Assembly (NCBI RefSeq): GCF_039922535.1
Contig: NZ_JBDTEM010000147.1
Location: 523-64,522 of the forward strand
Origin: Rhodoferax sp.
GTDB taxonomy: Bacteria > Pseudomonadota > Gammaproteobacteria > Burkholderiales > Burkholderiaceae_C
Direction: 5' to 3'
Length of the DNA: 64,000 bases
Positions 611 through 38,785 of the stretch are shown here, piece by piece (positions within the stretch are counted from its first letter, which is position 1; every line of letters starts with the position of its first letter). The position numbers and the translations under genes were made by a program. The notes beneath the pieces were generated by a model. That model saw only the letters and a list, made by a program, of their open reading frames with translations, was not told where the DNA came from and did not search any database.

Positions 611-1228
611 ATGAACACACCTACCGACTCCGTTTCAAAGCCCCGCCTGCACCCCATGGTCATCGCCGCCTGCTCGGCCGTGGTGCTGGTCTGCGCCGTG
701 GGTACGGCGGCCATCATGGGCTGGATTCCCACCTCCACGGCCCGCAACACGGAGACCAGCAGCTTGGCGCAACCGGCGCCAGTAACCGCTCCGGTTGAAG
801 CACCCGTCAAGGCCCCCGTAAAGGCCCCACAAATGGCGGCAGCGCCCGTGCACAACACCACCCACACCGAGCCACGCCCAGTGGCTGCCATTTGCAGCAA
901 TTGCGGCGTGGTGGAATCTACCCGTGAAATCACCAACGCCGCCAAGGGCAGCGGTGTGGGTGCCGTTGGTGGCGCGGTGGTAGGTGGCGTACTGGGCCAC
1001 CAGGTCGGCGGTGGCCGGGGCCGCGACGTGGCGACCGTGCTGGGAGCCCTGGGCGGCGCCTTTGCCGGTAACCATATCGAAGGCCAAGTGAAGGCCACGC
1101 ACAGCTATGAAATCACTGTGCGCCTGGACGACGGTTCCACCCGCACCCTGCAACAGTCCGAGCAGCCCGGCTGGCAAGCAGGTGACCGGGTGAAGATCGT
1201 CAACGGCGCACTGCGCTCCATCGGCTAA
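611..1228 (+). CDS. Glycine-zipper 2TM domain outer-membrane protein (SlyB/Pcp-like)
   Basis: N-terminal TM segment, Pro/Ala linker, CxxCGVVES motif, GAVGGAVVGGVLGHQVGGGRGR glycine zipper, C-terminal YEITVRLDDG...GDRVKI. Confidence 0.85.
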   Translation: MNTPTDSVSKPRLHPMVIAACSAVVLVCAVGTAAIMGWIPTSTARNTETSSLAQPAPVTAPVEAPVKAPVKAPQMAAAPVHNTTHTEPRPVAAICSNCGVVESTREITNAAKGSGVGAVGGAVVGGVLGHQVGGGRGRDVATVLGALGGAFAGNHIEGQVKATHSYEITVRLDDGSTRTLQQSEQPGWQAGDRVKIVNGALRSIG

Positions 1229-1242
1229 TTTGCCGCATTTCT

Positions 1243-2658
1243 TCAAGCGGTGGCCATCAGGCGCCGCACTGCTGCACGGGCGGTATGGCGTAGCTCGGCC
1301 ACGTCCAGCCCCTGCAGCACGTCGTCGCGCACCACCTGCTGCCCGGCCACAAACAGCGCCTTGAGCCGGGGCCGCCCGCCGCTGACCACTGGGCCCAGCG
1401 CCACGTCGTGCAGGCCAAAGTAGCGAGGGTCGTCCAGCGCATAAATTGCCAGATCCGCCGCCATGCCGGGGGCCAGCGTGCCCACATCGCCCAGGCCCAG
1501 CACGGTGGCACCGCCCGAGGTACCCCAGGCGACCACATCGTCGGCACTCACTGCCACACGCTCGCCCTCCCCGACCCCGCCCCGGAATACCGGCTGGCTC
1601 TTGTCGCCCTGCGCGGCGCGCTGCATCAGCCAGGCGGCGTGCACTTCCGACACCATGTCGGCGGCTTCGTTGGAGGCTGCGCCGTCCACCCCAATCGAGA
1701 TCGGCACGCCCGCGGCCTGCAAGGCCATCACCGGCGCGGTGCCGCTGCCCAGGCGGCCATTGCTTTGCGGGCAATGGGCAATGCCGGTGCGGGTGCTGCC
1801 CAGCAGGGCAATTTCTTCGGCATCCAGCTTGACCAGATGGGCGAACCACACGTCCGACCCCAGCCATTCGTGCTCGGCCACAAAGCGCACCGGCGACAGG
1901 CCGTGCATGGCGTGCACGCTGTCCTGGTAGCCCACGGTTTCCGACAAATGCGAGTGCAGGCGGATGCCGAGTCGGCGGGCGGTGCGGGCGCATTCCCGCA
2001 GCTCGGCCGGGGCCAGCGAGTAAGGAGGCGTGGTGGGGGCCATGACGACGCGGCGCATCGCATCCGGCGCGGGGTCGTGGTAGCGGGCGGTGAGGCGCTC
2101 CACATCGGCCAGGTAGGCATCCAGCGACTCGGGCCGCATGGCCTGGGGCAGTTCGGCCTCCAACTGGCGGGTGCGGGTGGCACCACCGCGGCACAACACA
2201 AAGCGCAAGCCCATGCGCTCGGCCTCCTCGAACAAAATCGCCGAGCCGTCGAACGGCATGCCGGGGTAGTACAGGTAGTTGTGGTCGGCCACTGTGCCGC
2301 AGCCGGATAAGGCCAGCTCCAGCAGACCGATGCGCGCCGCGGTGCGGAACAAGTCCTCGTCAAACGCCGCCCGGAAGCGGTACGGCGTGGCCGCCAGCCA
2401 GGCCGTCAGTGGCAGGTCGATACCGCCCGCATCCCCCTTGAGCAGCGACTGGAACAGGTGGTGGTGGGTGTTGACCCAGCTGGGGTAGATGACGCAGTCG
2501 GTCGCGTCGATCACCGTCTCGCCCGGCAGCGGGGTCAGCGGGCCGATGGCCTCGATGCGCTTGCCGCGCAGGCGGATGTCGGGGCCCGCAATCCGCGAAG
2601 CGGCACCGGGTTGGCCGCTGAGGATGGCGGCTGCATTGCGTATCAAAGTGGTGCTCAT
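1243..2658 (-). CDS. Metal-dependent amidohydrolase, 8-oxoguanine/isoxanthopterin deaminase-like (AtzB clade)
   Basis: NTHHHLFQS, LHSHLSET, HCPQSN and DGAASN motifs. True start MSTTLIRNA at 2658 overlaps the permease stop (ATGA). Confidence 0.85.
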   Translation of the reverse strand: MSTTLIRNAAAILSGQPGAASRIAGPDIRLRGKRIEAIGPLTPLPGETVIDATDCVIYPSWVNTHHHLFQSLLKGDAGGIDLPLTAWLAATPYRFRAAFDEDLFRTAARIGLLELALSGCGTVADHNYLYYPGMPFDGSAILFEEAERMGLRFVLCRGGATRTRQLEAELPQAMRPESLDAYLADVERLTARYHDPAPDAMRRVVMAPTTPPYSLAPAELRECARTARRLGIRLHSHLSETVGYQDSVHAMHGLSPVRFVAEHEWLGSDVWFAHLVKLDAEEIALLGSTRTGIAHCPQSNGRLGSGTAPVMALQAAGVPISIGVDGAASNEAADMVSEVHAAWLMQRAAQGDKSQPVFRGGVGEGERVAVSADDVVAWGTSGGATVLGLGDVGTLAPGMAADLAIYALDDPRYFGLHDVALGPVVSGGRPRLKALFVAGQQVVRDDVLQGLDVAELRHTARAAVRRLMATA

Positions 2659-3446
2659 GTTGCGCTTTCGTGCCAGTGGCCCAGGGCCTTTTTGGATAAC
2701 CAAACCATGCTGATAAACAGCAATACACCGGTCACCGAAATCAACACCAGCGCGGCGAACAGGCGTGGGATGTTGATCTGGAAACCGGCCTGCAAAATTT
2801 CGTATGCCAGGCCCGCGCCGGTGCCGCCCGTACCGGCCACAAACTCGGCCACCACCGCGCCGATCAAGGCCAGCCCGCTGGAGATGCGCAGGCCGCCAAA
2901 GAAGAACGGCAGCGCACTCGGGATGCGCAGCCGCACCAGGGTTTGCCAGCGGCTGGCGCCGTTCAGCTTGAACAGATTCAGCAGCCCAGGATTCACGCTG
3001 CGAAGCCCCAGCACGGTGTTCGACAAAATGGGGAATAGCGTCACCAAAGTGGCGCACAGCACCAGCGCGAAGGTCGGGTTCTTCACCCAGATGATGATCA
3101 ACGGCGCAATCGCCACCACCGGCGTTACCTGCAGCAGGATGGCGTAGGGGAACAGGCTGGCCTCGATGAAGCGGTTCTGCACAAACAAGAAGGCGCCGGC
3201 CACACCCAGTAGCACCGCCAGCGCAAACGCCAGCACCGTGACCTTCAGCGTTACGCCCAGCGCACGCAGCAGCGAGGGGCCGTCAGTGAGCAGGGTTTGG
3301 AAGATGTCGCTGGGCTTAGGCACCAGGTACACCGGCACCTGCCAGGCCGTGCACAGCGCCTGCCAAATCAGCAGCAACACGATGCCGAAGCTGATCGGCG
3401 CCAGCCAGTTGAGAACGCCGGGGCGTTGCAGCAAAGGGGTTGTCAT
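2655..3446 (-). CDS. ABC transporter permease, NitT/TauT family
   Basis: Six hydrophobic segments and an EAA-like loop (LFKLNGASRWQTLVRLRIPSALP). AAGGAG RBS upstream of ATG 3446. Confidence 0.9.
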   Translation of the reverse strand: MTTPLLQRPGVLNWLAPISFGIVLLLIWQALCTAWQVPVYLVPKPSDIFQTLLTDGPSLLRALGVTLKVTVLAFALAVLLGVAGAFLFVQNRFIEASLFPYAILLQVTPVVAIAPLIIIWVKNPTFALVLCATLVTLFPILSNTVLGLRSVNPGLLNLFKLNGASRWQTLVRLRIPSALPFFFGGLRISSGLALIGAVVAEFVAGTGGTGAGLAYEILQAGFQINIPRLFAALVLISVTGVLLFISMVWLSKKALGHWHESAT

Positions 3447-3459
3447 GGTCATCACTCCT

Positions 3460-4269
3460 TCAATGGGCCGACATCAGCAGGGCGGAGAGTTCGCGGCAGT
3501 GGTCGGCGAACGCGGGGGACAGGCGGTAGGTCTCGGAGCGGTCCGGCTCGTCCAGCGGCACATCGGCCATCAGCCGGCCCGGCCGGGCCGCCATCATCAC
3601 CACGCGGCTGGACAAGAACACCGCCTCGTAAATGCTGTGCGTGACGAACACCACCGTCAGGCCCCGCGCCGCCCAGAGCGCGCGCAGGTCGGCATCGAGC
3701 TTGTTGCGGGTGAACTCGTCCAGCGCACCAAAGGGCTCGTCCATCAGCAGCACATCTGGCTCGGTGACCAAGGCACGGGCAATGGACGCACGCATCTGCA
3801 TGCCGCCCGACAGCTCGCGCGGATACGACTTGCCGAACGCTGCCAAGCCCACCTGCGCCAGTGCCGTGGCCACGCGGGCATCGGCCTCTGCGCGCGGCAC
3901 GCCGTGCAGGTCCAGCGGCAGGCGCACGTTGGCAGCGACCGTGGTCCAGGGCATTAGCGTGGCCTCCTGGAACACCATGGCCGTTTTCAGACCCGACTTG
4001 GCCGGGCTGTCTTGCCCGGCCCAGCGCACATGGCCATGCGAGGGCGACTCCAACCCGGCAAACATCTTCAGCAGCGTGCTCTTGCCGCAGCCGGAGGGGC
4101 CAAGCAGCGAGACAAAGTCACCGCGCTGGATGCGCAGGCTCAGGCGCGACAAGGCATGGGTGCCGTTGCCGTAGGTCTTCTCCACCTGGTTGGCGTGGAG
4201 CACGGTGTCGGCATCGGGCGGTAAAGACTGCACCGTGGGCACAGGAATAGGCAGGGCTTGCATCAGCAT
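3460..4269 (-). CDS. ABC transporter ATP-binding protein, NitT/TauT family
   Basis: Walker A GPSGCGKST, LSGGMQMR signature, Walker B LLMDEPF. Confidence 0.95.
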   Translation of the reverse strand: MLMQALPIPVPTVQSLPPDADTVLHANQVEKTYGNGTHALSRLSLRIQRGDFVSLLGPSGCGKSTLLKMFAGLESPSHGHVRWAGQDSPAKSGLKTAMVFQEATLMPWTTVAANVRLPLDLHGVPRAEADARVATALAQVGLAAFGKSYPRELSGGMQMRASIARALVTEPDVLLMDEPFGALDEFTRNKLDADLRALWAARGLTVVFVTHSIYEAVFLSSRVVMMAARPGRLMADVPLDEPDRSETYRLSPAFADHCRELSALLMSAH

Positions 4270-4281
4270 GGTGCGTACTCC

Positions 4282-5334
4282 TTAGGCCGCCACAGGGTGG
4301 ATGGGAATGCGCCGGTTGCCCCGGTGCACCTCTTCCTCGCCATGGGCTTTGAGCAGATCGAGCAATTGCTTGCGGATCATCAGGCCGGGGCGGTCGCTGG
4401 GCATGTGGAATTCTTGCCGGCGCGTGGTGTCGATGCAGGCATCGAAATCGGTGGCTTCCAGGATGTCGCGGTCTTCGGCGGTGATGGCTGCGTCCCAGTC
4501 AATCAGCTCCTGCGTGCTGCACTGCTCTTCGCTGTCGTTGCGGTACAGCCACTGCACCAGCATCAGGCGGTCGTCGCTGATCGGCGTCGCGCAGTTGTAG
4601 ATGATGTGGTCGATGCCGCTGTCCGGGTACTGGCAGCCAAAGCGGCGCGAAAACGGCAGGTAGTAGCGGTTCGTCAAATGCCGCTGCGTCATCGGCGTGG
4701 TGGTGCCGGTGACGCGGTGGCCAGCCGGCGGGTTCTTGATCGGCACCAGGGTCTCGGCCTGGAAGCCGTAGTCGGTGTCATGGATCTCGTACTTTTGCGG
4801 CACCGGTTGATCGATGTCGCCAAAGTTGGCCTTGTGCACGAAGCTGAAGTGCGAGTTGTCGAAGGCGTTTTCCATCACCCGCACCGGGCTGGTTTTCCAC
4901 TCTTCATAAAACTGGAAGATGCGGCGGTAGCCGGGCGCACCGTCTTCGGGGAAGTGCGGAATATCGCGCAGCGGGTCTTCCAGCGCCACCCACACGTAGC
5001 CATATTTCTCCTGGCAGTGGAAGGACGGCACCTTGGCTCCGGCGGGGATATTGCCATCGGGATTTTGCGGAATGCGCACGCAGCTGCCGCCGCAGTCATA
5101 GGTCCAGCCGTGGTAGCCGCAGACGATGTGGTCGCCCTCGACAAAGCCTTTGGACAGCTTGGCCGTGCGGTGGCAGCAGCGGTCGCGCAGGGCAGCGGGC
5201 GTGCCGTCCTGCTTCTTCCACAGCACTAAATTTTCGCCTAGCAAGGTGAAGGGTTGCGGGCCATCGTCCAGCTGGTGAATGGGCATCAGCGCGTACCAGA
5301 AGCGGCGCAGAACGGGTTGTTGGGTTACTAGCAT
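4282..5334 (-). CDS. Rieske non-heme iron oxygenase alpha subunit (VanA/NdmA-like demethylase/hydroxylase group)
   Basis: Rieske motif RCCHR...CGYHGW and mononuclear-Fe motif ENAFDNSHFSFVH. Likely start MLVTQQP at 5334. Confidence 0.9.
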   Translation of the reverse strand: MLVTQQPVLRRFWYALMPIHQLDDGPQPFTLLGENLVLWKKQDGTPAALRDRCCHRTAKLSKGFVEGDHIVCGYHGWTYDCGGSCVRIPQNPDGNIPAGAKVPSFHCQEKYGYVWVALEDPLRDIPHFPEDGAPGYRRIFQFYEEWKTSPVRVMENAFDNSHFSFVHKANFGDIDQPVPQKYEIHDTDYGFQAETLVPIKNPPAGHRVTGTTTPMTQRHLTNRYYLPFSRRFGCQYPDSGIDHIIYNCATPISDDRLMLVQWLYRNDSEEQCSTQELIDWDAAITAEDRDILEATDFDACIDTTRRQEFHMPSDRPGLMIRKQLLDLLKAHGEEEVHRGNRRIPIHPVAA

Positions 5335-5434
5335 GTCATCTCTCCTCCATCGGCGCAGAGCCTGCATTGCGCGGGCTCTGCGCCACCGGCCGGCGCGCCA
5401 AAATGGTCGCCTTCGCCGATAAATGCTTACTTTG

Positions 5435-6442
5435 TTACGGCATGACCTTCAGGTCTTTCACAAACTGCGTCGTGTAGGCCTTTTTCCAGTCCACACCGGG
5501 CTTGAGCAGACCAGCGGAGAGCATGAACTTGTAGGTTTGCTCCCAGCGCGCGTCGGTCATCACGCCCACGCCCTGGGTAGCGGCATCACCGCCGTCCACG
5601 GCCTTGACTTCCTTCATGCGTTTCACGGCGAAGGCGATCAGGTCGTCTTCCATCTTCGGGTTGTCTTTTTTAATCAGCGCGTTGCCGGGTGCGGGGTCGG
5701 CCAGATAGCTTTTCCAGCCTTCCATCGAAGCGCGGACAAAGCGGGCCACCACATCCGGTTTCTCGGCCACCATCTTTTGCTGCGTGACGATAGTGGTGCC
5801 ATACGGCGGATAGCCCTGGTCGCCCAGCAGGAAGAAGTTGGCTGGCACATTGCTCTTCATGGCCATGAACGGCTCGGACGACAGGTAGGCGCTTTGGGCC
5901 ACGTTCTTGTCGACGATGAAGGGCTGCAGATTGAAGGTGTAGGGCCGCACCTGGTCCATGCTGTAGCCGTACTTGCCCAGCAGCCAGGGCAGCCAACTGG
6001 TCTGGGCGGAGGTGTTGGCCAGGATGGTCTTGCCCTTCAGGTCGGCCAGGCTCTTCACATCGTCGTGCGCCATGATGCCTTGCAGGTCTTTCTGGAACGA
6101 GGCCGCCACCGTTACCACCGGCAGGCCTTTTTCCACTGCGTTCAGGGTCTGGATGTCGTAGCCCATGATGAAGTCGGCCTGGCCCGCCGCCAGCAGCTGG
6201 ATGCCGTTGACCTGCGGGCCACCCATCTTGATGGTTACGTCCAGCCCGTACTTTTTGTACAAGCCGGTGGCCACCGCCTGGTAGAAGCCGCCGTGCTCGG
6301 CCTGGGCGTACCAGGATGTGAGCATGGTCACCTTGTCCTGCGCCCAGGCGGCGCTGGTGAGGGTGGTGGCAGCCAGGGTGGTGGCTGTCAGGGCCAGGCG
6401 GGAAAACCACCGGCGATAGAGAGGTTGGGGTTGGCGATGCAT
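5435..6442 (-). CDS. ABC substrate-binding protein, NMT1/THI5-like
   Basis: Signal peptide (...AAWA-QD); TSWYAQAEHGGFYQAVATGLYKKYGLDV and GGPQVNG are typical of NMT1/THI5-like SBPs. Confidence 0.9.
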   Translation of the reverse strand: MHRQPQPLYRRWFSRLALTATTLAATTLTSAAWAQDKVTMLTSWYAQAEHGGFYQAVATGLYKKYGLDVTIKMGGPQVNGIQLLAAGQADFIMGYDIQTLNAVEKGLPVVTVAASFQKDLQGIMAHDDVKSLADLKGKTILANTSAQTSWLPWLLGKYGYSMDQVRPYTFNLQPFIVDKNVAQSAYLSSEPFMAMKSNVPANFFLLGDQGYPPYGTTIVTQQKMVAEKPDVVARFVRASMEGWKSYLADPAPGNALIKKDNPKMEDDLIAFAVKRMKEVKAVDGGDAATQGVGVMTDARWEQTYKFMLSAGLLKPGVDWKKAYTTQFVKDLKVMP

Positions 6443-6615
6443 GGCTATCCGTCCTAAAGCTAAATTGCTGTGGAAAGACGAAAGCACCGCGCAGAGACAG
6501 GCCCAGAACACCGCACCAGGGCGCGGATGGCCAACAGCTGTTCTCCGTGGCGTTCACACATGAACACCAATGCACGCGCCGGGCGGCGTGTGCATGCGAC
6601 GGCACTTCCGTCACC

Positions 6616-6672
6616 GGAGCAATGACCGACAACCGACACCTGTAAGGGCGGGTTGCTGACAGCTTCTACTCC
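6616..6672 (-). ncRNA. Xanthine riboswitch (NMT1 motif RNA)
   Basis: Minus strand reads GGAGTAGAAGCTGTCAGC-AACC..GGTT-GTCGGTCATTGCTCC. This matches the NMT1/xanthine aptamer architecture as I recall it (GGAGUAGAAGC..CAGC-stem-..AUUGCUCC), with the P1 GGAG/CUCC pairing. It sits upstream of an NMT1-like SBP and a Rieske oxygenase. Confidence 0.8.
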
Positions 6673-6683
6673 ACGTACGGCCA

Positions 6684-6699
6684 TGCAAATGGTGTGCCA
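6684..6699 (-). promoter_or_regulatory. Sigma54 -24/-12 promoter
   Basis: TGGCAC-ACCAT-TTGCA on the minus strand is a perfect consensus. The predicted +1 falls at the first nucleotides of the riboswitch. Confidence 0.8.
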
Positions 6700-6706
6700 G
6701 ATGGAT

Positions 6707-6723
6707 TGCACGGCTTTGGTGCG
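6707..6723. promoter_or_regulatory. Possible NtrC-like binding site
   Basis: TGCACGG-CTT-TGGTGCG versus consensus TGCACCA-N3-TGGTGCA (11/14). It is unusually close to the -24 element. Confidence 0.35.
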
Positions 6724-6767
6724 GGGTGGCTAGCACGCCGGTTAGCGCCATCCCGGACAATACCCGC

Positions 6768-7721
6768 ATGCCCACCCCCACCCATTTGCTGATTCCCCTG
6801 GCCGCCAGCGCGTCTGACGGCTGCCGCCAGGCGCTGGCCACGCTGCGCCTACCGAACCTGGAGCGCCTGCTCCAGCGCCTCACCGCCACCGCCCACGATA
6901 GCGGTGAAGACACCAGCCTGTCGCCCCCGCACGAACGCGCCCTGGCCCGGCACTACGGCCTGCCGGTGGCCGACGGCCAAATCCCCTGGGCGGCACATGA
7001 GGTGGCACAAGTGGCAGCGCAAGACGGTGCCTGGGCCTACATCACCCCCTGCCACTGGCAGGTGATGACCGACCACATCGTGATGGCCCCGCCCGACACG
7101 CTGGGGCTGGAAGAAGCCGAATCCCGCGCCGTGCTCGCCGCCGTGCGGCCCTTTTTTGAAGAAGACGGCATCACACTCACCTACGCCAGCCCCACCCGCT
7201 GGCTGGCGCAAGGCGAAATTTTTCGCGGTCTGGCCACGGCCTCGCTGGACCGCGTGGTCAGCGGCGTGGGCGCACGCAATGTGGATGAATGGATGCCCCC
7301 CACGGCCCAGGGCGGCCCGCTGCGGCGGCTGCAGAGCGAGATGCAGATGCTGCTCTACACCCATGCCGTCAGCGATGCCCGTAACGAACGCGGCCTGTTC
7401 CCGATCAACTCGTTCTGGGTCAGCGGCAGCGGAGCCTTGGCAGCGCCACCCGCGCCACAACCCGCCCCCAGCATGCCGCTGACCCTGCTGCACGCCGCGC
7501 AGATGGAGGACTGGGCAGCCTGGACCGCCGCCTGGCAGCACATCGACACCACCGCCTGCGCCGAACTGCTGACTGCGCTGGACCAGGGCCAAGCCGTGCA
7601 ACTCACGCTGTGCGGTGAAAGCAACGCGCAAAGCTTCGAGGTAGTGCCGCGCAACTTCTTCCAGAAAATTTCAAGCCTTTTAAGCCCCCAGCGCTTATCT
7701 AACTTGCTGGAGAAGCTATGA
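6768..7721 (+). CDS. Conserved hypothetical protein upstream of recJ (often annotated phosphoglycerate mutase-like/RpfE-type)
   Basis: ITPCHWQV, LQSEMQMLLY and INSFWVSGSG motifs; ATGA overlap with recJ. Confidence 0.7.
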   Translation: MPTPTHLLIPLAASASDGCRQALATLRLPNLERLLQRLTATAHDSGEDTSLSPPHERALARHYGLPVADGQIPWAAHEVAQVAAQDGAWAYITPCHWQVMTDHIVMAPPDTLGLEEAESRAVLAAVRPFFEEDGITLTYASPTRWLAQGEIFRGLATASLDRVVSGVGARNVDEWMPPTAQGGPLRRLQSEMQMLLYTHAVSDARNERGLFPINSFWVSGSGALAAPPAPQPAPSMPLTLLHAAQMEDWAAWTAAWQHIDTTACAELLTALDQGQAVQLTLCGESNAQSFEVVPRNFFQKISSLLSPQRLSNLLEKL

Positions 7722-7732
7722 AAATTACAGCA
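7669..7732 (+). repeat. Repeat copy spanning the upstream gene's C-terminus and the recJ start codon
   Basis: TTTCAAGCCTTTTAAGCCCCCAGCGC...AGAAGCTATGAAAATTACAGCA is colinear with the copies at 346 and 14664. Confidence 0.7.
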
Positions 7733-9442
7733 CGCGACATTCCGCCCCGCGCCGTCTGGGCGCTGGAGCAAGCCGGGGTCCACCCCCTGCTGGCGCGCTT
7801 GTTCGCCGCCCGTGGCGTGGCCGACAAAGACGCGCTGGACGACGGCCTGGGCAAGCTGCTGTCGCCCGCCAGCATGCTGGGCACGCAAGCCGCCGCCGTG
7901 CTGCTGGCCGACGCCATTGCCGCCGACAAAAAGCTCTGCATCGTGGCCGACTACGACTGCGACGGTGCCACCGCCTGCGCCGTCGGCCTGCGCGGCCTGC
8001 GCCTGCTGGGCGCCAAGCACGCCGACTACATCGTGCCCGACCGCGTGACCGACGGCTACGGCCTGACGCCCAGCATCGCCCGCCGCGTGAAAGACAGCGG
8101 CGCCGACATGCTGGTCACCGTGGACAACGGCATCGCCAGCCTGGAAGGCGTGGCCGAGGCCAAGGCCCTGGGCTTGCAGGTGCTGGTAACCGACCACCAT
8201 TTGCCGGCACTGAAAGACGGCCAGATCGTGCTGCCGGATGCCGACGTGCTAGTGAACCCCAACCAGCCGGGCTGCGGCTTCGAGAGCAAATCGATTGCCG
8301 GTGTTGGAGTCATGTTCTACGTGCTGCTGGCATTGCGTGCCGAGCTGCGCAGCAGGGGTGTATTCACGGCAGAGAACCAGCCCAAGTTGGACCCGCTGCT
8401 GACGCTCGTTGCCCTGGGCACCGTGGCCGATGTGGTTAAGCTGGATGCGAACAACCGCCGCCTTGTAGCCCAAGGGTTAAAACGGCTTCGCGCGCAGGCG
8501 CAACCTGCGGGACTAGCTGCGTTATTTGTAGCAGCCGGGCGCCAGGCCAAGGTCGCCACGACCTTCGATTTCGGCTTTGCCCTCGGCCCGCGCATCAATG
8601 CCGCAGGCCGCCTGGCCGACATGACGCTGGGGATAGAGTGCCTGCTGACCGACGACCCGGCGCGCGCTACCGAATTGGCCACCACCCTGGACAAAATCAA
8701 CCGCGAACGCCGCGAGATCGAAGGCGGCATGCGCGACCAGGCGATGCTGGTGGCCGAGTCGCTGTTCGACGAATCCGAGGAGCCGCCGCCAGCGGTCTGC
8801 GTGTTCGACCCGGACTTCCACGAAGGCGTGGTCGGCATCGTCGCCAGCCGCCTGAAAGACAAGCTGCACCGCCCCATCTTCGTCTTCGCTGCCAGCAAGG
8901 CGCCGGGCAAAGAGCATGAACTCAAGGGCTCGGGCCGCTCCATCCCCGGCTTCCATCTGCGCGACGCACTCGACCTGGTGGCCAAGCGCCACCCTGGCGT
9001 GCTGCTGCGCTTTGGCGGCCACGCCATGGCAGCGGGCTGCACCGTGCATGAAGACAACTTTGCGCAGTTTGAACAGGGCCTGCAACAGGTGGCGCTGGAA
9101 TGGCTGGACGCCGCCACGCTGACGCGCCGCCTGGAGACCGACGGCCCGCTGGCACCCGAATACCGCCGCGCCGAGCTGGTCGATGTGCTGCACAAAGAGG
9201 TCTGGGGCCAGGGCTTTGCGCCACCCACGTTCAGCGAAGAAGTCGAAGTGGTGTCGCAGCGCCTGGTGGGCGAAAAGCATTTGTCGCTGAAACTCAAGCA
9301 CCAGGGCCAGCCGGTGGACGGCATCTGGTTTGGCCACACCGAGAGCTTGCCGCCCCGGGTCACGCTGGCGTTTCGGCTGGATGTGAACGAGTGGCAGGGC
9401 CAGCGGCGCGTGCAGTTTCTGGTGGAAGCCGCAGAGGAATAA
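7718..9442 (+). CDS. recJ: Single-stranded-DNA-specific exonuclease RecJ
   Basis: DYDCDG, TVDNG, TDHH, GPRINAAGRL and GSGRS...FGGHAMAAG motifs. Confidence 0.97.
   Translation: MKITARDIPPRAVWALEQAGVHPLLARLFAARGVADKDALDDGLGKLLSPASMLGTQAAAVLLADAIAADKKLCIVADYDCDGATACAVGLRGLRLLGAKHADYIVPDRVTDGYGLTPSIARRVKDSGADMLVTVDNGIASLEGVAEAKALGLQVLVTDHHLPALKDGQIVLPDADVLVNPNQPGCGFESKSIAGVGVMFYVLLALRAELRSRGVFTAENQPKLDPLLTLVALGTVADVVKLDANNRRLVAQGLKRLRAQAQPAGLAALFVAAGRQAKVATTFDFGFALGPRINAAGRLADMTLGIECLLTDDPARATELATTLDKINRERREIEGGMRDQAMLVAESLFDESEEPPPAVCVFDPDFHEGVVGIVASRLKDKLHRPIFVFAASKAPGKEHELKGSGRSIPGFHLRDALDLVAKRHPGVLLRFGGHAMAAGCTVHEDNFAQFEQGLQQVALEWLDAATLTRRLETDGPLAPEYRRAELVDVLHKEVWGQGFAPPTFSEEVEVVSQRLVGEKHLSLKLKHQGQPVDGIWFGHTESLPPRVTLAFRLDVNEWQGQRRVQFLVEAAEE
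8479..8532 (+). repeat. Degenerate repeat-like segment inside recJ
   Basis: 32/54 ungapped identity to the copy at 39310-39363, in a patch of rare codons (TTA, CTA, GTA, CTT). Confidence 0.45.
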
Positions 9443-35903: not shown

Positions 35904-37085
35904 TCAGTCCAGCGATGCCGCTGGGCCGAAGAATTCATAGCGGGTTTGCGCCTCGGGCACGCCCAATGCGCGCAACTGCTTTTTCACCTGGCGCATAAAG
36001 GGCTTGGGGCCCAAAAAATACGCGTCCACATCGCGCGAGGCGGGCAGCCACTGGGCCAACTGTTGCGGCTCCAGGTGGCCCACGGCATGCGGTGCGTCTT
36101 CAGAACCGCTGTGCTCGTCATAGGCATAAAAGCGCTGCAACTGCGGGTGCTTGGCCAGGCGCGCCTCGATGGCGTGGCGGAAGGCATGCACATGGCGATT
36201 GCGCGCACAGTGGATGAAGTGCACCGGCCGTGTGCCCTGCAGCGCCGCGTCCAACATCGCCAACGTGGGCGTGATGCCAACGCCGCCGCTGATCAGCACC
36301 ACGGGGCGCTCACCGGCCGCCAGCACGAATTCGCCTGCGGGCGGAAACAGCTCCAGCACATCGCCAACCTGTACCTGGTCATGCAGATGGTTCGACGCCA
36401 GGCCGCCAGCCTCGCGCTTGACGCTGATGCGGTAGTCCACACCATTGGGGGCGGCCGACAGCGAGTAGTTGCGGCGAATCTCCTGGCCGTTCACCATAAG
36501 GCGCAGGCCGATGTACTGGCCCGGCACAAATTCGGCCAGCGCGCCGCCGTCTTGCGGCTGTAGGTAGAACGAGGTGATTTCGCTGCTCTCGACCTCTTTG
36601 CGGGCCACGCGGAAGGCCCGCGCACCGCGCCAGCCGCCCGGGGCGGCAGCGGTATCGGCATAGATTTTTTCTTCGGCCCCGATCAGGATGTCGGCCAACT
36701 GGCCATAGGCCGCGCCCCATGCAGCGATGACTGTATCGGTAGCGATCTCGGCGCCCAGCACTTCGCGGATGGCGCGTAGCAGGCAGGCGCCGACCACGGG
36801 GTAGTGTTCGGGCTGGATCTGCAGCGACACATGCTTCTGGATGATCTGCGTCACCAGGCCGCCCAGCTGCTCCAGCTTATCGATATGCCGGGCGTACATC
36901 AGCACACCATTCGCCAGCGCGCGCGGCTGGTCACCGCTGGCTTGGTTCGCCTGGTTGAAAAACGGCCGTACCTCGGGGTGTTCGGCCAGCAGGATTTTGT
37001 AGAAATGCGTGGTCAGCGCCTCGCCGCCGCTCTCCAGCAGGGGCACGGTGGATTTGACGATGGCGCGTTGTTCAGGGGTCAGCAT
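35904..37085 (-). CDS. hmp: Flavohaemoglobin (NO dioxygenase)
   Basis: Globin domain (FNQANQ, IIQKHVSL, HYPVVG), FAD domain RRNYSLS and NAD domain LISGGVGITP. Confidence 0.96.
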   Translation of the reverse strand: MLTPEQRAIVKSTVPLLESGGEALTTHFYKILLAEHPEVRPFFNQANQASGDQPRALANGVLMYARHIDKLEQLGGLVTQIIQKHVSLQIQPEHYPVVGACLLRAIREVLGAEIATDTVIAAWGAAYGQLADILIGAEEKIYADTAAAPGGWRGARAFRVARKEVESSEITSFYLQPQDGGALAEFVPGQYIGLRLMVNGQEIRRNYSLSAAPNGVDYRISVKREAGGLASNHLHDQVQVGDVLELFPPAGEFVLAAGERPVVLISGGVGITPTLAMLDAALQGTRPVHFIHCARNRHVHAFRHAIEARLAKHPQLQRFYAYDEHSGSEDAPHAVGHLEPQQLAQWLPASRDVDAYFLGPKPFMRQVKKQLRALGVPEAQTRYEFFGPAASLD

Positions 37086-37136
37086 GGATGGGCTTTCAAT
37101 GAGGCTGCAGGGCGACGCTCTGCTGCACCCGGTTTA

Positions 37137-37151
37137 TCAAGATCCATGCCC
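37137..37151 (-). promoter_or_regulatory. Sigma54-like promoter for hmp (-12 variant GA)
   Basis: GG-CATGGATCTT-GA on the minus strand (GG-N10-GA instead of GC), divergent from norR. Confidence 0.5.
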
Positions 37152-37207
37152 GGCCTACGGTCTATACAAATCAAGCACTTACGCTTTTACAGTATCTAAT
37201 GGATGCA

Positions 37208-37234
37208 GTCATAATGATCTTAAAAAATATCAGA

Positions 37235-37239
<5 letters not shown>
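37208..37239. promoter_or_regulatory. Two NorR-type sites (GTCA-N3-TGAC-like)
   Basis: GTCATAATGAT (37208) and ATCAGAATGAC (37229) are 21 bp apart with one mismatch each. The second overlaps the norR ATG. Confidence 0.65.

Positions 37240-38785
<1,546 letters not shown>

What the first reader, a model, noticed from the sequence alone, without database searches (positions are those of the whole stretch)
1243..6699. Xanthine riboswitch under a sigma54 promoter controlling an uncharacterised purine-oxidation operon
Seen: a perfect TGGCAC-N5-TTGCA whose predicted +1 coincides with an NMT1-motif aptamer, then an NMT1/THI5-like SBP, a Rieske oxygenase, an ABC ATPase and permease, and an 8-oxoguanine/isoxanthopterin-deaminase-like enzyme. 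Established: NMT1-motif RNAs sense xanthine and uric acid, and sigma54/NtrC governs nitrogen scavenging. Inference: nitrogen status (transcription) and purine level (riboswitch) jointly gate a pathway for oxidised or methylated purines or pterins.
Basis: partly seen in the sequence, partly recalled or inferred. Interest (0 to 1): 0.72.

Follow-up and report, generated by a model that had tools for sequence, protein, structure and literature searches.

The report
Nitrogen-controlled promoter feeding a xanthine riboswitch
A known xanthine/urate-sensing RNA switch sits at the very start of a transcript made from a sigma-54 (nitrogen-starvation type) promoter and controls a five-gene base-uptake, oxygenase and deaminase operon. 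The same promoter-switch pairing recurs in more than a third of such switches sampled across Proteobacteria, and I found no paper reporting it.

Summary

- **Riboswitch:** Rfam's Xanthine/NMT1 model hits 6612-6676 at 47.3 bits (threshold 36).
- **Promoter:** a perfect TGGCAC-N5-TTGCA lies at 6684-6699. Its predicted +1 (about 6673) is one base before helix P1.
- **Operon:** NMT1/THI5-type binding protein, Rieske oxygenase, ABC ATPase, permease and an amidohydrolase 72% identical to PDB 2PAJ.
- **Already published:** the riboswitch class and its association with these gene types (Yu & Breaker 2020), where a tested member is a ligand-OFF switch.
- **Apparently unreported:** the sigma-54 coupling. 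Of 148 aptamers from species-representative genomes, 56 carry a -24/-12 box at this fixed offset (0.16 expected from shuffles) and 26 more carry one slightly further upstream.
- **Likely activator:** NtrC. Its half-site GCACCA is the most enriched hexamer upstream of these boxes, and no dedicated activator gene lies nearby.
- **Leader:** the window's clade has a 170-nt leader with covariation-supported competing helices and a sequestered ribosome-binding site.

Best reading: nitrogen limitation switches transcription on and xanthine/urate modulates translation. The direction of that second step (probably OFF) is unresolved in this clade. No transcription start or ligand data exist.

The parts
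6707..6723 (.). NtrC-like palindrome CGCACCAAAGCCGTGCA (consensus TGCACCAnnnTGGTGCA; 3 mismatches in 14 specified positions), centred at about -42 from the predicted start
   Evidence: It is one of only three conserved blocks upstream of the aptamer in the 11-sequence clade alignment A5.
6684..6699 (-). Sigma-54 type -24/-12 promoter element TGGCAC-N5-TTGCA
   Evidence: Perfect match. TGGC and TTGC are invariant in 11 of 11 clade members. The same offset of -28 is the mode across 148 aptamers. No sigma-70-like promoter was found in 1000-7000.
6672..6674 (-). Predicted transcription start (+1 at about 6673), 0-2 nt before P1
   Evidence: Inferred from the standard sigma-54 geometry, with the C of GC at -12 (6685). 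Not measured.
6612..6676 (-). Xanthine/urate riboswitch aptamer (NMT1 motif). P1 is 6667-6672 paired with 6616-6621
   Evidence: RF03054, 47.3 bits against a gathering score of 36. P1 and P2 pairs with compensatory changes in alignment A4.
6596..6614 (-). Element E1 (GACGGAAGUGCC, 6601-6612). It forms either a local hairpin GUGACGG/CCGUCGC or a 12-bp long-range helix with E2
   Evidence: RNAalifold. E1:E2 is 96% paired with 4 compensatory pairs; 0 of 500 shuffles reached the observed covariation score.
6570..6595 (-). Conserved hairpin AUGC...GCAU followed by UUGGUGUU (terminator-like; role unknown)
   Evidence: Four pairs with compensatory changes. Flagged by the terminator scan. Absent in relative L134.
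6543..6550 (-). Element Y (CCACGGAG): a mimic of the P1 5' strand that can pair with the P1 3' strand (anti-P1 helix)
   Evidence: Column 66/148 covaries (UA in 7 sequences, CG in 4) together with the P1 closing pair. Column 67/147 is GC in 10 and AU in 1. The helix appears in folds where P1 is penalised.
6472..6488 (-). Element E2 (GGUGCUUUCGUC, 6477-6488) overlapping the invariant anti-Shine-Dalgarno CGUCUUUCC (6472-6480)
   Evidence: CGTCTTTCC is invariant in 11 of 11 sequences. It pairs with the SD region in the consensus fold.
6440..6455 (-). Shine-Dalgarno region AGGACGGA (6448-6455) and the ATG of the binding-protein gene (6440-6442)
   Evidence: The same start was called on the source assembly contig.
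5435..6442 (-). Periplasmic substrate-binding protein, NMT1/THI5-like (335 aa, signal peptide with an RR motif)
   Evidence: PF09084, 3.9e-38. Nearest solved structures are 4NMY and the ThiY pyrimidine-binding protein 3IX1.
4282..5334 (-). Rieske [2Fe-2S] non-haem iron oxygenase (350 aa), VanA_C-type catalytic domain
   Evidence: PF00355 and PF19112. Nearest solved structures are SxtDIOX/SxtT (5e-42) and the methylxanthine N-demethylases NdmA/NdmB (5e-37).
3460..4263 (-). ABC transporter ATPase (taurine/nitrate/sulfonate-type)
   Evidence: PF00005, 1.2e-34. NCBIfam below-cutoff matches to TauB/SaoA-type models.
2655..3455 (-). ABC transporter permease
   Evidence: PF00528, 1.8e-25.
1243..2658 (-). 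Amidohydrolase-superfamily deaminase (471 aa), PRK12393 group
   Evidence: NF009059, 748 bits against a cutoff of 543. About 72% identical to PDB 2PAJ over 466 residues, E 3e-219. 8-oxoguanine deaminase/AtzB 7WW2 matches only at 2.7e-70.

Best explanation
This is a composite two-layer control region for a five-gene operon, with three levels of certainty.

Shown by sequence and comparison:
- A sigma-54 type -24/-12 promoter (6684-6699) is placed so that the mRNA begins 0-2 nt before helix P1 of a bona fide xanthine/urate (NMT1-motif) aptamer (6612-6676).
- The aptamer is followed by a 170-nt structured leader in which an invariant anti-SD (CGUCUUUCC) pairs with the ribosome-binding site of the first gene.
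- Two further helices, both supported by covariation, compete with P1 (Y with the P1 3' strand) and with the anti-SD region (E1 with E2).

Inferred, layer 1:
- Transcription requires sigma-54 holoenzyme plus a trans-acting enhancer-binding protein.
- That protein is most probably NtrC, so the operon is made only under nitrogen limitation.

Inferred, layer 2:
- Xanthine or urate binding stabilises P1. Through the Y/E1/E2 relay this changes how tightly the translation-initiation region of the binding-protein gene is sequestered.
- By analogy with the one experimentally tested member of the class, ligand most likely turns expression down.
- The cell would then scavenge nitrogen from imported guanine-, methylpurine- or pterin-like bases and stop when the deaminated or oxidised products (xanthine, urate) accumulate.
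- In that scheme the binding protein, permease and ATPase import the base. The NdmA/SxtT-like Rieske oxygenase hydroxylates or demethylates it. The 2PAJ-like deaminase releases ammonia.
For: Aptamer:
- Rfam hit above the gathering score. P1/P2 covariation in the clade.

Promoter:
- A perfect consensus, invariant in 11 of 11 clade members while the flanks diverge.
- Found at -32..-26 in 56 of 148 aptamers from alpha-, beta- and gammaproteobacterial species representatives. Shuffles gave 0.16 and the reverse-complement control gave 1. A further 26 have it at -60..-33.
- The sampled aptamers are real: Rfam gave 29 hits at or above the gathering score in the 18 loci checked, covering every pattern-detected aptamer there plus four more.
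- Divergent aptamer pairs have a box on each side, and in Acidovorax L018 only 78 bp separate the two aptamers. That leaves no room for other promoters.
- No sigma-70-like promoter was found in 1000-7000.
- The organism uses sigma-54: a GAF/Sigma54_activat/HTH_8 protein is encoded at 37199-38785.

NtrC as activator:
- GCACCA/TGGTGC is the most enriched hexamer upstream of the boxes (51 of 85 against 13 of 63, p = 1.3e-6).
- NtrC-like 17-mers occur in 29 of 85 regions against 0.41 in shuffles.
- A conserved box lies at 6707-6723.
- None of the 120 8-kb loci contains a GAFTGA-motif gene.

Leader relay:
- 94.9% of cells are paired, 6 pairs show compensatory change, and 0 of 500 shuffles reached the covariation score.
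- The consensus fold contains the anti-SD:SD helix.

OFF polarity and gene associations: PMC7373994.

Operon:
- The same five genes in the same order occur in Actimicrobium, Cupriavidus, Paraburkholderia and several metagenome contigs. Herbaspirillum shows the first three genes before its locus ends. All have the sigma-54 box.
Against: - No transcription-start, rpoN/ntrC or ligand data exist for this or any related locus. RNA runs were absent or uninformative.
- In the window itself the only NtrC-like box is a single site centred at about -42. That is closer than a classical enhancer at -100 to -140, and no second site is conserved.
- Equilibrium folding predicts the SD to be sequestered whether or not the aptamer is formed in most clade members.
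- Where folding does show a difference, the aptamer-formed state exposes the SD slightly more (window 0.20 to 0.38; L126 0.01 to 0.09). That points towards ON rather than OFF.
- The anti-P1 helix is computed to be weaker than P1 in 10 of 11 sequences.
- rpoN and ntrC themselves are not in the window.
Confidence: 0.72

Rival explanations
1. The anatomy is the same, but in this clade the riboswitch is a ligand-ON switch. Without ligand, Y pairs with the P1 3' strand. That is topologically incompatible with the E1:E2 helix, so E2 and the anti-SD sequester the ribosome-binding site. With xanthine or urate, P1 is locked and E1 captures E2, which shortens the anti-SD:SD helix and exposes the ribosome-binding site. 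The operon would then be a true AND gate: nitrogen limitation AND oxidised purine present.
For: - X:Y and E1:E2 are both supported by covariation. They share or abut G70, so they would form a pseudoknot with a connecting loop of 0-2 nt across a 12-bp stem, which makes them mutually exclusive.
- Wherever constrained folding shows any difference, the aptamer-formed ensemble has the more accessible SD (window 0.20 to 0.38; L126 and L135 0.01 to about 0.1; L134 0.01 to 0.04).
- In the window the state P1 + E1:E2 is 4.9 kcal/mol better than P1 + full SD helix.
- An inducer logic suits an uptake and catabolic operon.
Against: - The only genetic test of the class showed OFF behaviour, and all associated genes were argued to act upstream of xanthine (PMC7373994).
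- In L004-type sequences the E1:E2 state is 3-8 kcal/mol worse than local E1 plus the SD helix.
- Predicted SD exposure stays near zero in most members.
- The argument rests on nearest-neighbour energies and topology, not on data.
Confidence: 0.3
2. The sigma-54 promoter is real, but the activator is not NtrC. It would be another trans-acting enhancer-binding protein, for example a purine- or carbon-responsive one, that recognises a similar GCAC-N7-GTGC palindrome. The conserved box at about -42 could instead bind a repressor or co-regulator.
For: - In the window's clade there is only one conserved box, and it lies immediately next to the -24 element. That is atypical for an NtrC enhancer.
- Palindromes of this geometry are not unique to NtrC (own knowledge).
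Against: - GCACCA is the top enriched hexamer, and many loci carry near-consensus TGCAyCAnnnTGGTGCA at -60 to -120 (Delftia, Comamonas and L113 with 1-2 mismatches).
- No enhancer-binding-protein gene is linked in any of the 120 loci, which favours a global regulator.
- Low-affinity NtrC sites near -45 are known at E. coli glnAp2 (own knowledge).
Confidence: 0.25
3. The TGGCAC-N5-TTGCA match is not the operon's promoter. It would be a chance or silent sigma-54 binding site, or a transcribed and conserved 5' extension of the RNA motif, with transcription starting from an unrecognised sigma-70-type promoter further upstream.
For: - Intragenic and silent sigma-54 sites are common: the window's second perfect match, 38577-38592, lies inside a coding region.
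- With one mismatch allowed the motif is not enriched in the window.
- There are no transcription-start data.
Against: - The offset is fixed in 56 of 148 aptamers against 0.16 expected.
- Only the GG/GC-containing hexamers are conserved, while the N5 spacer and the 11-13 nt before P1 vary. That is a DNA-level sigma-54 signature, not an RNA helix.
- A 78-bp inter-aptamer region with two boxes leaves no space for other promoters.
- The scan found no sigma-70-like site.
- NtrC-type sites co-occur.
Confidence: 0.06

Closest known systems
Xanthine riboswitch / NMT1 motif RNA (Rfam RF03054; Weinberg et al. 2017, PMC5737381; Yu & Breaker 2020, PMC7373994; structure Xu & Ren 2021, PMC8266621)
   Same: - Same aptamer: full-length covariance-model hit above threshold with the conserved junction nucleotides.
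- Same taxonomic range (Proteobacteria).
- Same associated genes: NMT1/THI5-like, tauA-type ABC, Rieske dioxygenase and PRK12393 amidohydrolase, arranged as an operon.
- Control at translation initiation is expected.
   Different: - The published description does not mention native promoters. Here the aptamer starts at +1 to +3 of a sigma-54 promoter.
- The published expression platforms are short, with the RBS close to P1. This clade has a 170-nt leader with a relay of competing helices and a remote anti-SD.
- The polarity of the switch has not been tested for this architecture.
NtrC/sigma-54 nitrogen-scavenging promoters (e.g. glnAp2 and the Ntr regulon of enterobacteria and pseudomonads)
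   Same: - The -24 GG / -12 GC element with canonical spacing.
- TGCACCAnnnTGGTGCA-like upstream sites.
- Downstream genes that import and deaminate a nitrogen-rich compound.
- No linked dedicated activator gene.
   Different: - The transcript begins directly with a metabolite-sensing aptamer, so a second, RNA-level input is wired in series.
- In the window's clade only one box, at about -42, is conserved, not a distal enhancer pair.
- No experimental Ntr dependence is known.
Purine and pterin catabolic enzymes: isoxanthopterin deaminase (PDB 2PAJ; Hall et al. 2010, recalled from memory), 8-oxoguanine deaminase/AtzB-like N2,N2-dimethylguanine hydrolases (PMC13054789), and the methylxanthine N-demethylases NdmA/NdmB
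   Same: - The deaminase is about 72% identical to 2PAJ.
- The Rieske protein aligns over its full length with NdmA (5e-37) and with SxtT/SxtDIOX.
- The products of such enzymes (xanthine, urate or close analogues) match the riboswitch ligands.
   Different: - The substrate is unknown.
- The protein scores below the curated cutoff of the 8-oxoguanine deaminase model.
- No reductase partner for the Rieske oxygenase is encoded in the operon.
- Weinberg et al. place the riboswitch-linked amidohydrolases in a group of ambiguous specificity.

Membership tests
Xanthine riboswitch (RF03054) | Covariance-model score at or above the curated gathering score over the full model | tested here: met
   47.3 bits against 36, model positions 1-56 of 56, E 2.4e-7.
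Xanthine riboswitch (RF03054) | P1-P2a-P2b architecture with conserved junction nucleotides, and helices supported by covariation | tested here: met
   GAGUAGAAGC and GGUCAUUGCUC are invariant in the clade. The P1 closing pair is AU in 7 and GC in 4 sequences. P2 pairs show 3-5 compensatory changes.
Xanthine riboswitch (RF03054) | 5'-UTR position upstream of the purine-related genes typical of the class | tested here: met
   The genes match the list in PMC7373994.
Xanthine riboswitch (RF03054) | Selective binding of xanthine or urate, and ligand-dependent gene control | not testable with these tools
   Needs in-line probing and reporter assays.
Sigma-54-dependent promoter | GG at -24 and GC at -12 with TGGCAC-N5-TTGC spacing | tested here: met
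   Perfect 11-of-11 match at 6684-6699.
Sigma-54-dependent promoter | Conservation of the element, but not its flanks, at orthologous and analogous sites | tested here: met
   11 of 11 in the clade. 56 of 148 in the class at a fixed offset against 0.16 expected. Both sides of divergent pairs.
Sigma-54-dependent promoter | The organism has sigma-54 machinery | tested here: inconclusive
   A NorR-like enhancer-binding protein is encoded in the window, which implies sigma-54. rpoN itself is not in the 64 kb.
Sigma-54-dependent promoter | Mapped transcription start about 12 nt after the GC, and dependence on rpoN and an activator ATPase | not testable with these tools
   No RNA runs exist for the organism. 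Contigs from RNA runs of a relative were uninformative.
NtrC (Ntr) regulon member | NtrC-binding sites (TGCACCAnnnTGGTGCA) upstream of the -24/-12 element | tested here: inconclusive
   At class level the feature is met: 29 of 85 regions against 0.41 in shuffles, and the top hexamer is GCACCA. In the window there is one conserved site with 3 mismatches, centred at about -42, and no distal pair.
Isoxanthopterin / 8-oxoguanine deaminase group (cog0402 amidohydrolases) | Curated family model above its cutoff, and close identity to a characterised member | tested here: met
   NF009059 PRK12393, 748 bits against 543. About 72% identical to 2PAJ.
8-oxoguanine deaminase (NF006055 equivalog) | Score at or above the curated equivalog cutoff | tested here: not met
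   391.7 bits against a cutoff of 532. It should not be named 8-oxoguanine deaminase.
NdmA-type Rieske N-demethylase / purine hydroxylase | Rieske domain plus VanA_C-type catalytic domain, and a cognate reductase | tested here: inconclusive
   Both domains are present and NdmA aligns at 5e-37. No reductase gene is in the operon, and the substrate is unknown.

The most novel reading that the evidence does not exclude
The promoter-aptamer unit is a conserved two-input logic module. An enhancer-dependent sigma-54/NtrC promoter is fused at +1 to a xanthine/urate aptamer. In the window's clade the aptamer acts through a three-helix relay as a ligand-ON switch. The uptake, oxygenase and deaminase operon would then be expressed only when nitrogen is limiting AND oxidised purines are present, which is the opposite polarity to the published member of the class.
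Probability: 0.28. Interest if true: 0.72.

Novelty: new variant of a known kind. Interest (0 to 1): 0.55.

Why it matters
Yu & Breaker left open why cells would switch these genes off with xanthine or urate, and what the genes are for. A conserved sigma-54/NtrC promoter places the transporter-type operons of this riboswitch class in the nitrogen-starvation response. That gives a testable physiological role: scavenging nitrogen from guanine-, methylpurine- or pterin-like bases, with the deaminated or oxidised product as the RNA-level signal.

I found no described case of a riboswitch routinely transcribed from an enhancer-dependent promoter with the aptamer at the extreme 5' end of the mRNA. 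The arrangement makes a compact, portable two-input regulatory module, and it makes the native 5' end of the aptamer predictable for biochemical work.

The long relay-type leader shows that expression platforms of this class are more varied than described.

Tried and rejected
1. **RNA evidence for the start site.** The window's organism is found only in DNA runs of a rhizosphere metagenome. RNA-run contigs laid on the Comamonas testosteroni locus span the whole region and carry no 5'-end information. The Pseudomonas locus returned no run classed as RNA.
2. **Direction of the switch from thermodynamics.** Constrained ensembles and state energies give a sequestered SD in nearly all states and inconsistent rankings between sequences, so no conclusion can be drawn.
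3. **A dedicated, linked activator.** None of the 120 8-kb loci has a GAFTGA-type motif. The idea was dropped in favour of a global activator.
4. **A sigma-70 promoter alternative.** The scan found none in 1000-7000.
5. **The leader hairpin at 6570-6595 as a ligand-controlled intrinsic terminator.** It forms in all predicted states, its U-tract is poor, and one relative (L134) lacks it. Its role remains unexplained.
6. **The second perfect sigma-54 match (38577-38592) as a control promoter.** It is intragenic, inside a NorR-like gene, and the hmp/norR intergenic region showed no clean box.
7. **Literature.** No paper in the held library links sigma-54, RpoN or NtrC with the NMT1/xanthine riboswitch or THI5-like genes. 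Supplementary text of Weinberg 2017 is not held, and Hall 2010 is not held.
8. **Start calls downstream of short-leader aptamers.** My naive calls were unreliable and were not used.

Full report
**What is there.** All features lie on the minus strand. Rfam's Xanthine (NMT1 RNA) model RF03054 matches 6676..6612 over its full length at 47.3 bits (gathering score 36, E 2.4e-7), and it is the only Rfam family found in the 64 kb. Eight bases upstream lies a perfect TGGCACaccatTTGCA at 6699..6684. The window holds two perfect matches against 0.15 expected. With one mismatch allowed the motif is not enriched (4 against 3.24), so the match alone proves little. With the GC dinucleotide at -13/-12 (C = 6685), the expected start is about 6673, one base before the first P1 base (G6672).

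**The operon.** Five genes follow:
- An NMT1/THI5-like periplasmic binding protein (5435-6442).
- A Rieske/VanA_C oxygenase (4282-5334).
- An ABC ATPase (3460-4263).
- A permease (2655-3455).
- An amidohydrolase (1243-2658). It passes the PRK12393 model (748 bits against 543). It fails the 8-oxoguanine deaminase equivalog cutoff (392 against 532).

The window matches contig JBDSLY010000316.1 of assembly GCA_039916165.1 and three Logan run assemblies. DNA runs labelled rhizosphere metagenome hold the same region.

**What was already known.** Yu & Breaker (PMC7373994) showed that NMT1-motif RNAs bind xanthine (KD about 3.7 uM) and urate. [quoted passage not shown] They listed exactly these gene classes as associated, sometimes as operons: NMT1/THI5-like, tauA-type ABC, hcaE/PDR Rieske dioxygenases and PRK12393 amidohydrolases. 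The one representative tested genetically, from Hydrogenophaga intermedia, behaves as an OFF switch, probably through RBS sequestration. Weinberg et al. (PMC5737381) had already linked the amidohydrolases to isoxanthopterin deaminase relatives of ambiguous specificity. The riboswitch and its operon type are therefore not new. Neither paper's held text mentions native promoters.

**Is the sigma-54 element real?**
- In 56 of them a TGGCAC-N5-TTGC box starts 26-32 nt before GAGUAG, with a mode of 28, which is the window's own offset. The criteria were at most 2 mismatches with GG and GC intact.
- Shuffled upstream regions gave 0.16 and the reverse complement gave 1. Another 26 instances carry the box at -33..-60.
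- Carriers span Pseudomonas, Cupriavidus, Paraburkholderia, Acidovorax, Comamonas, Delftia, Rhodoferax, Herbaspirillum, Hoeflea, Chelativorans, Aquibium and others.
- In 18 of these loci Rfam gave 29 hits at or above the gathering score. These cover every pattern-detected aptamer there plus four further divergent partners.
- In divergent aptamer pairs each side has its own box at the same offset. In Acidovorax L018 only 78 bp separate the two aptamers, which leaves no room for other promoters.
- Within the window's own clade (11 sequences from genomes and metagenomes) the only conserved upstream blocks are a GCACCAAAGCnGUGC box, CTGGCAC and TTGC(A/T).
- No sigma-70-like promoter is detectable in 1000-7000.
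- The window also encodes a NorR-like enhancer-binding protein, so the organism uses sigma-54.

I conclude that the element is a functional sigma-54 promoter with high probability, although no start site has been mapped.

**Which activator?**
- No enhancer-binding-protein signature (GAFTGA) occurs in any of the 120 8-kb loci. This argues for a global, unlinked activator.
- An unbiased hexamer comparison was made between regions upstream of the boxes and the equivalent regions of box-less aptamers. GCACCA/TGGTGC, the NtrC half-site, ranks first (51 of 85 against 13 of 63, p = 1.3e-6).
- NtrC-like 17-mers (at most 3 mismatches in 14 positions) occur in 29 of 85 regions against 0.41 in shuffles. 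They are concentrated 60-120 bp upstream of the -24 box.
- They are near-consensus in Delftia, Comamonas and L113.
- In the window the single conserved site (6707-6723) is centred at about -42, which is unusually close.

NtrC is thus well supported for the class and only moderately supported for this locus.

**Promoter type tracks gene type and aptamer subtype.**
- The first gene after box-carrying aptamers is most often the NMT1-type binding protein (22 of 43).
- Box-less aptamers mostly precede 2OG-Fe(II) dioxygenases (34 of 50).
- 'GAAGCAG' aptamers almost never carry the box (1 of 33).
- The five-gene operon in the window's order recurs, with the box, in Actimicrobium, Cupriavidus, Paraburkholderia and several metagenome contigs. 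Herbaspirillum L073 shows the first three genes before the locus ends.

**The leader.** The published short platforms do not apply here: 170 nt separate P1 from the start codon. The clade alignment A4 and RNAalifold show four features:
- The aptamer.
- A local hairpin GUGACGG/CCGUCGC.
- A hairpin AUGC...GCAU with four compensatory pairs, followed by a U-rich tract.
- A helix between the invariant CGUCUUUCC and the SD region.

I identified two further helices and tested them:
- **Element Y** (CAAC[A/G]GAG; 6543-6550) mimics the P1 5' strand and pairs with the P1 3' strand. It covaries with the P1 closing pair (UA in 7 sequences, CG in 4).
- **Element E1** (6601-6612) pairs with **E2** (6477-6488) over 12 bp, with four compensatory pairs.

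Across both helices 94.9% of cells are paired against 88.5% in shuffles, and 0 of 500 shuffles reached the covariation score. Partner positions slid by 1-3 columns drop to 31-56% paired. Because Y:P1-3' and E1:E2 abut at G70, they should be mutually exclusive, so the leader is a relay: P1 | Y | E1 | E2/anti-SD | SD.

**Direction of the switch.** Constrained folding does not settle it. The SD is predicted to be paired in nearly every state, and the ranking of states differs between sequences. The few differences favour more SD exposure when the aptamer is formed. I therefore keep ligand-OFF as the default, on the strength of the published experiment, and give a ligand-ON relay about 0.3.

**Enzymes.**
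- The amidohydrolase is about 72% identical to PDB 2PAJ over 466 residues. From memory, 2PAJ is the Sargasso Sea protein shown in vitro to deaminate isoxanthopterin (Hall et al. 2010); that paper is not held.
- It is much more distant from 8-oxoguanine deaminase/AtzB (7WW2).
- Relatives in that branch hydrolyse N2,N2-dimethylguanine (PMC13054789).
- The Rieske protein's nearest solved relatives are SxtDIOX/SxtT and the methylxanthine N-demethylases NdmA/NdmB.
- The binding protein resembles the ThiY pyrimidine-binding protein.

Together with a riboswitch that senses xanthine and urate, this suggests import of a 2-amino- or N-methyl-substituted purine or pterin. Oxidative trimming and deamination would then yield ammonia plus a xanthine- or urate-like product. 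This is inference, and the substrate is unknown.

**Novelty and verdict.** I searched the held literature for sigma-54, RpoN or NtrC together with the xanthine riboswitch, the NMT1 motif or THI5-like genes, and found nothing. The locus is an ordinary member of a known riboswitch class in its published gene context. The conserved fusion to a sigma-54/NtrC-type promoter with the aptamer at the 5' end of the mRNA appears unreported, and so does the relay-type leader of this clade. Both give the class a physiological frame of nitrogen scavenging. I rate the finding a new variant of a known kind, of moderate interest. The decisive experiments are transcription-start mapping, rpoN/ntrC dependence and reporter polarity.

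Noticed in passing
window 35904-38785: A NorR-like sigma-54 enhancer-binding protein (GAF + Sigma54_activat + HTH_8; 37199-38785, + strand) is divergent from a flavohaemoglobin gene (35904-37085, - strand). The window's second perfect TGGCAC-N5-TTGCA (38577-38592, + strand) lies inside the 3' end of this regulator gene, so it is an intragenic site. No clean -24/-12 box was found in the hmp/norR intergenic region.
   Followed up: partly
window 6768-7721 (+): The divergent 317-aa ORF next to the riboswitch promoter has no Pfam or NCBIfam match. Its end overlaps the start of recJ (7718-9442). Any distal enhancer for the sigma-54 promoter would have to lie inside this gene.
   Followed up: no
L001-L120 (genome loci): Aptamer sub-type correlates with promoter type. 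Aptamers with 'GAAGCAG' almost never carry the sigma-54 box (1 of 33) and mostly precede 2OG-Fe(II) dioxygenase genes. 'GAAGCGU' aptamers nearly always carry it (13 of 15).
   Followed up: partly
L018:5120-5199, L030:7002-7182, L051:4966-5153, L002:6274-6497, L079:7405-7640: Divergent pairs of xanthine aptamers share a short control region (78-234 bp). Each side has a sigma-54 box, and in L018, L030, L051, L002 and L079 NtrC-like boxes lie between them. These look like bidirectional enhancer-dependent promoters.
   Followed up: partly
window 6570-6595 (-): A leader hairpin (AUGCACACGCCG...CGGCGCGUGCAU) followed by UUGGUGUU is kept by compensatory changes in 10 of 11 relatives and is flagged as terminator-like. 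One relative (L134) lacks it. Its role in the expression platform is unexplained.
   Followed up: partly
L001, L006, L020, L040, L041, L097, L114 and others: In marine gammaproteobacteria (Vibrio, Marinomonas, Thalassolituus) the sigma-54-like box sits 42-57 nt before the aptamer instead of 28. That implies a 15-30 nt 5' tail before P1.
   Followed up: no
window 611-1228 (+): A glycine-zipper (Rick_17kDa_Anti-type) membrane or lipoprotein gene converges on the operon's last gene, with only 14 nt between the two stop codons.
   Followed up: no
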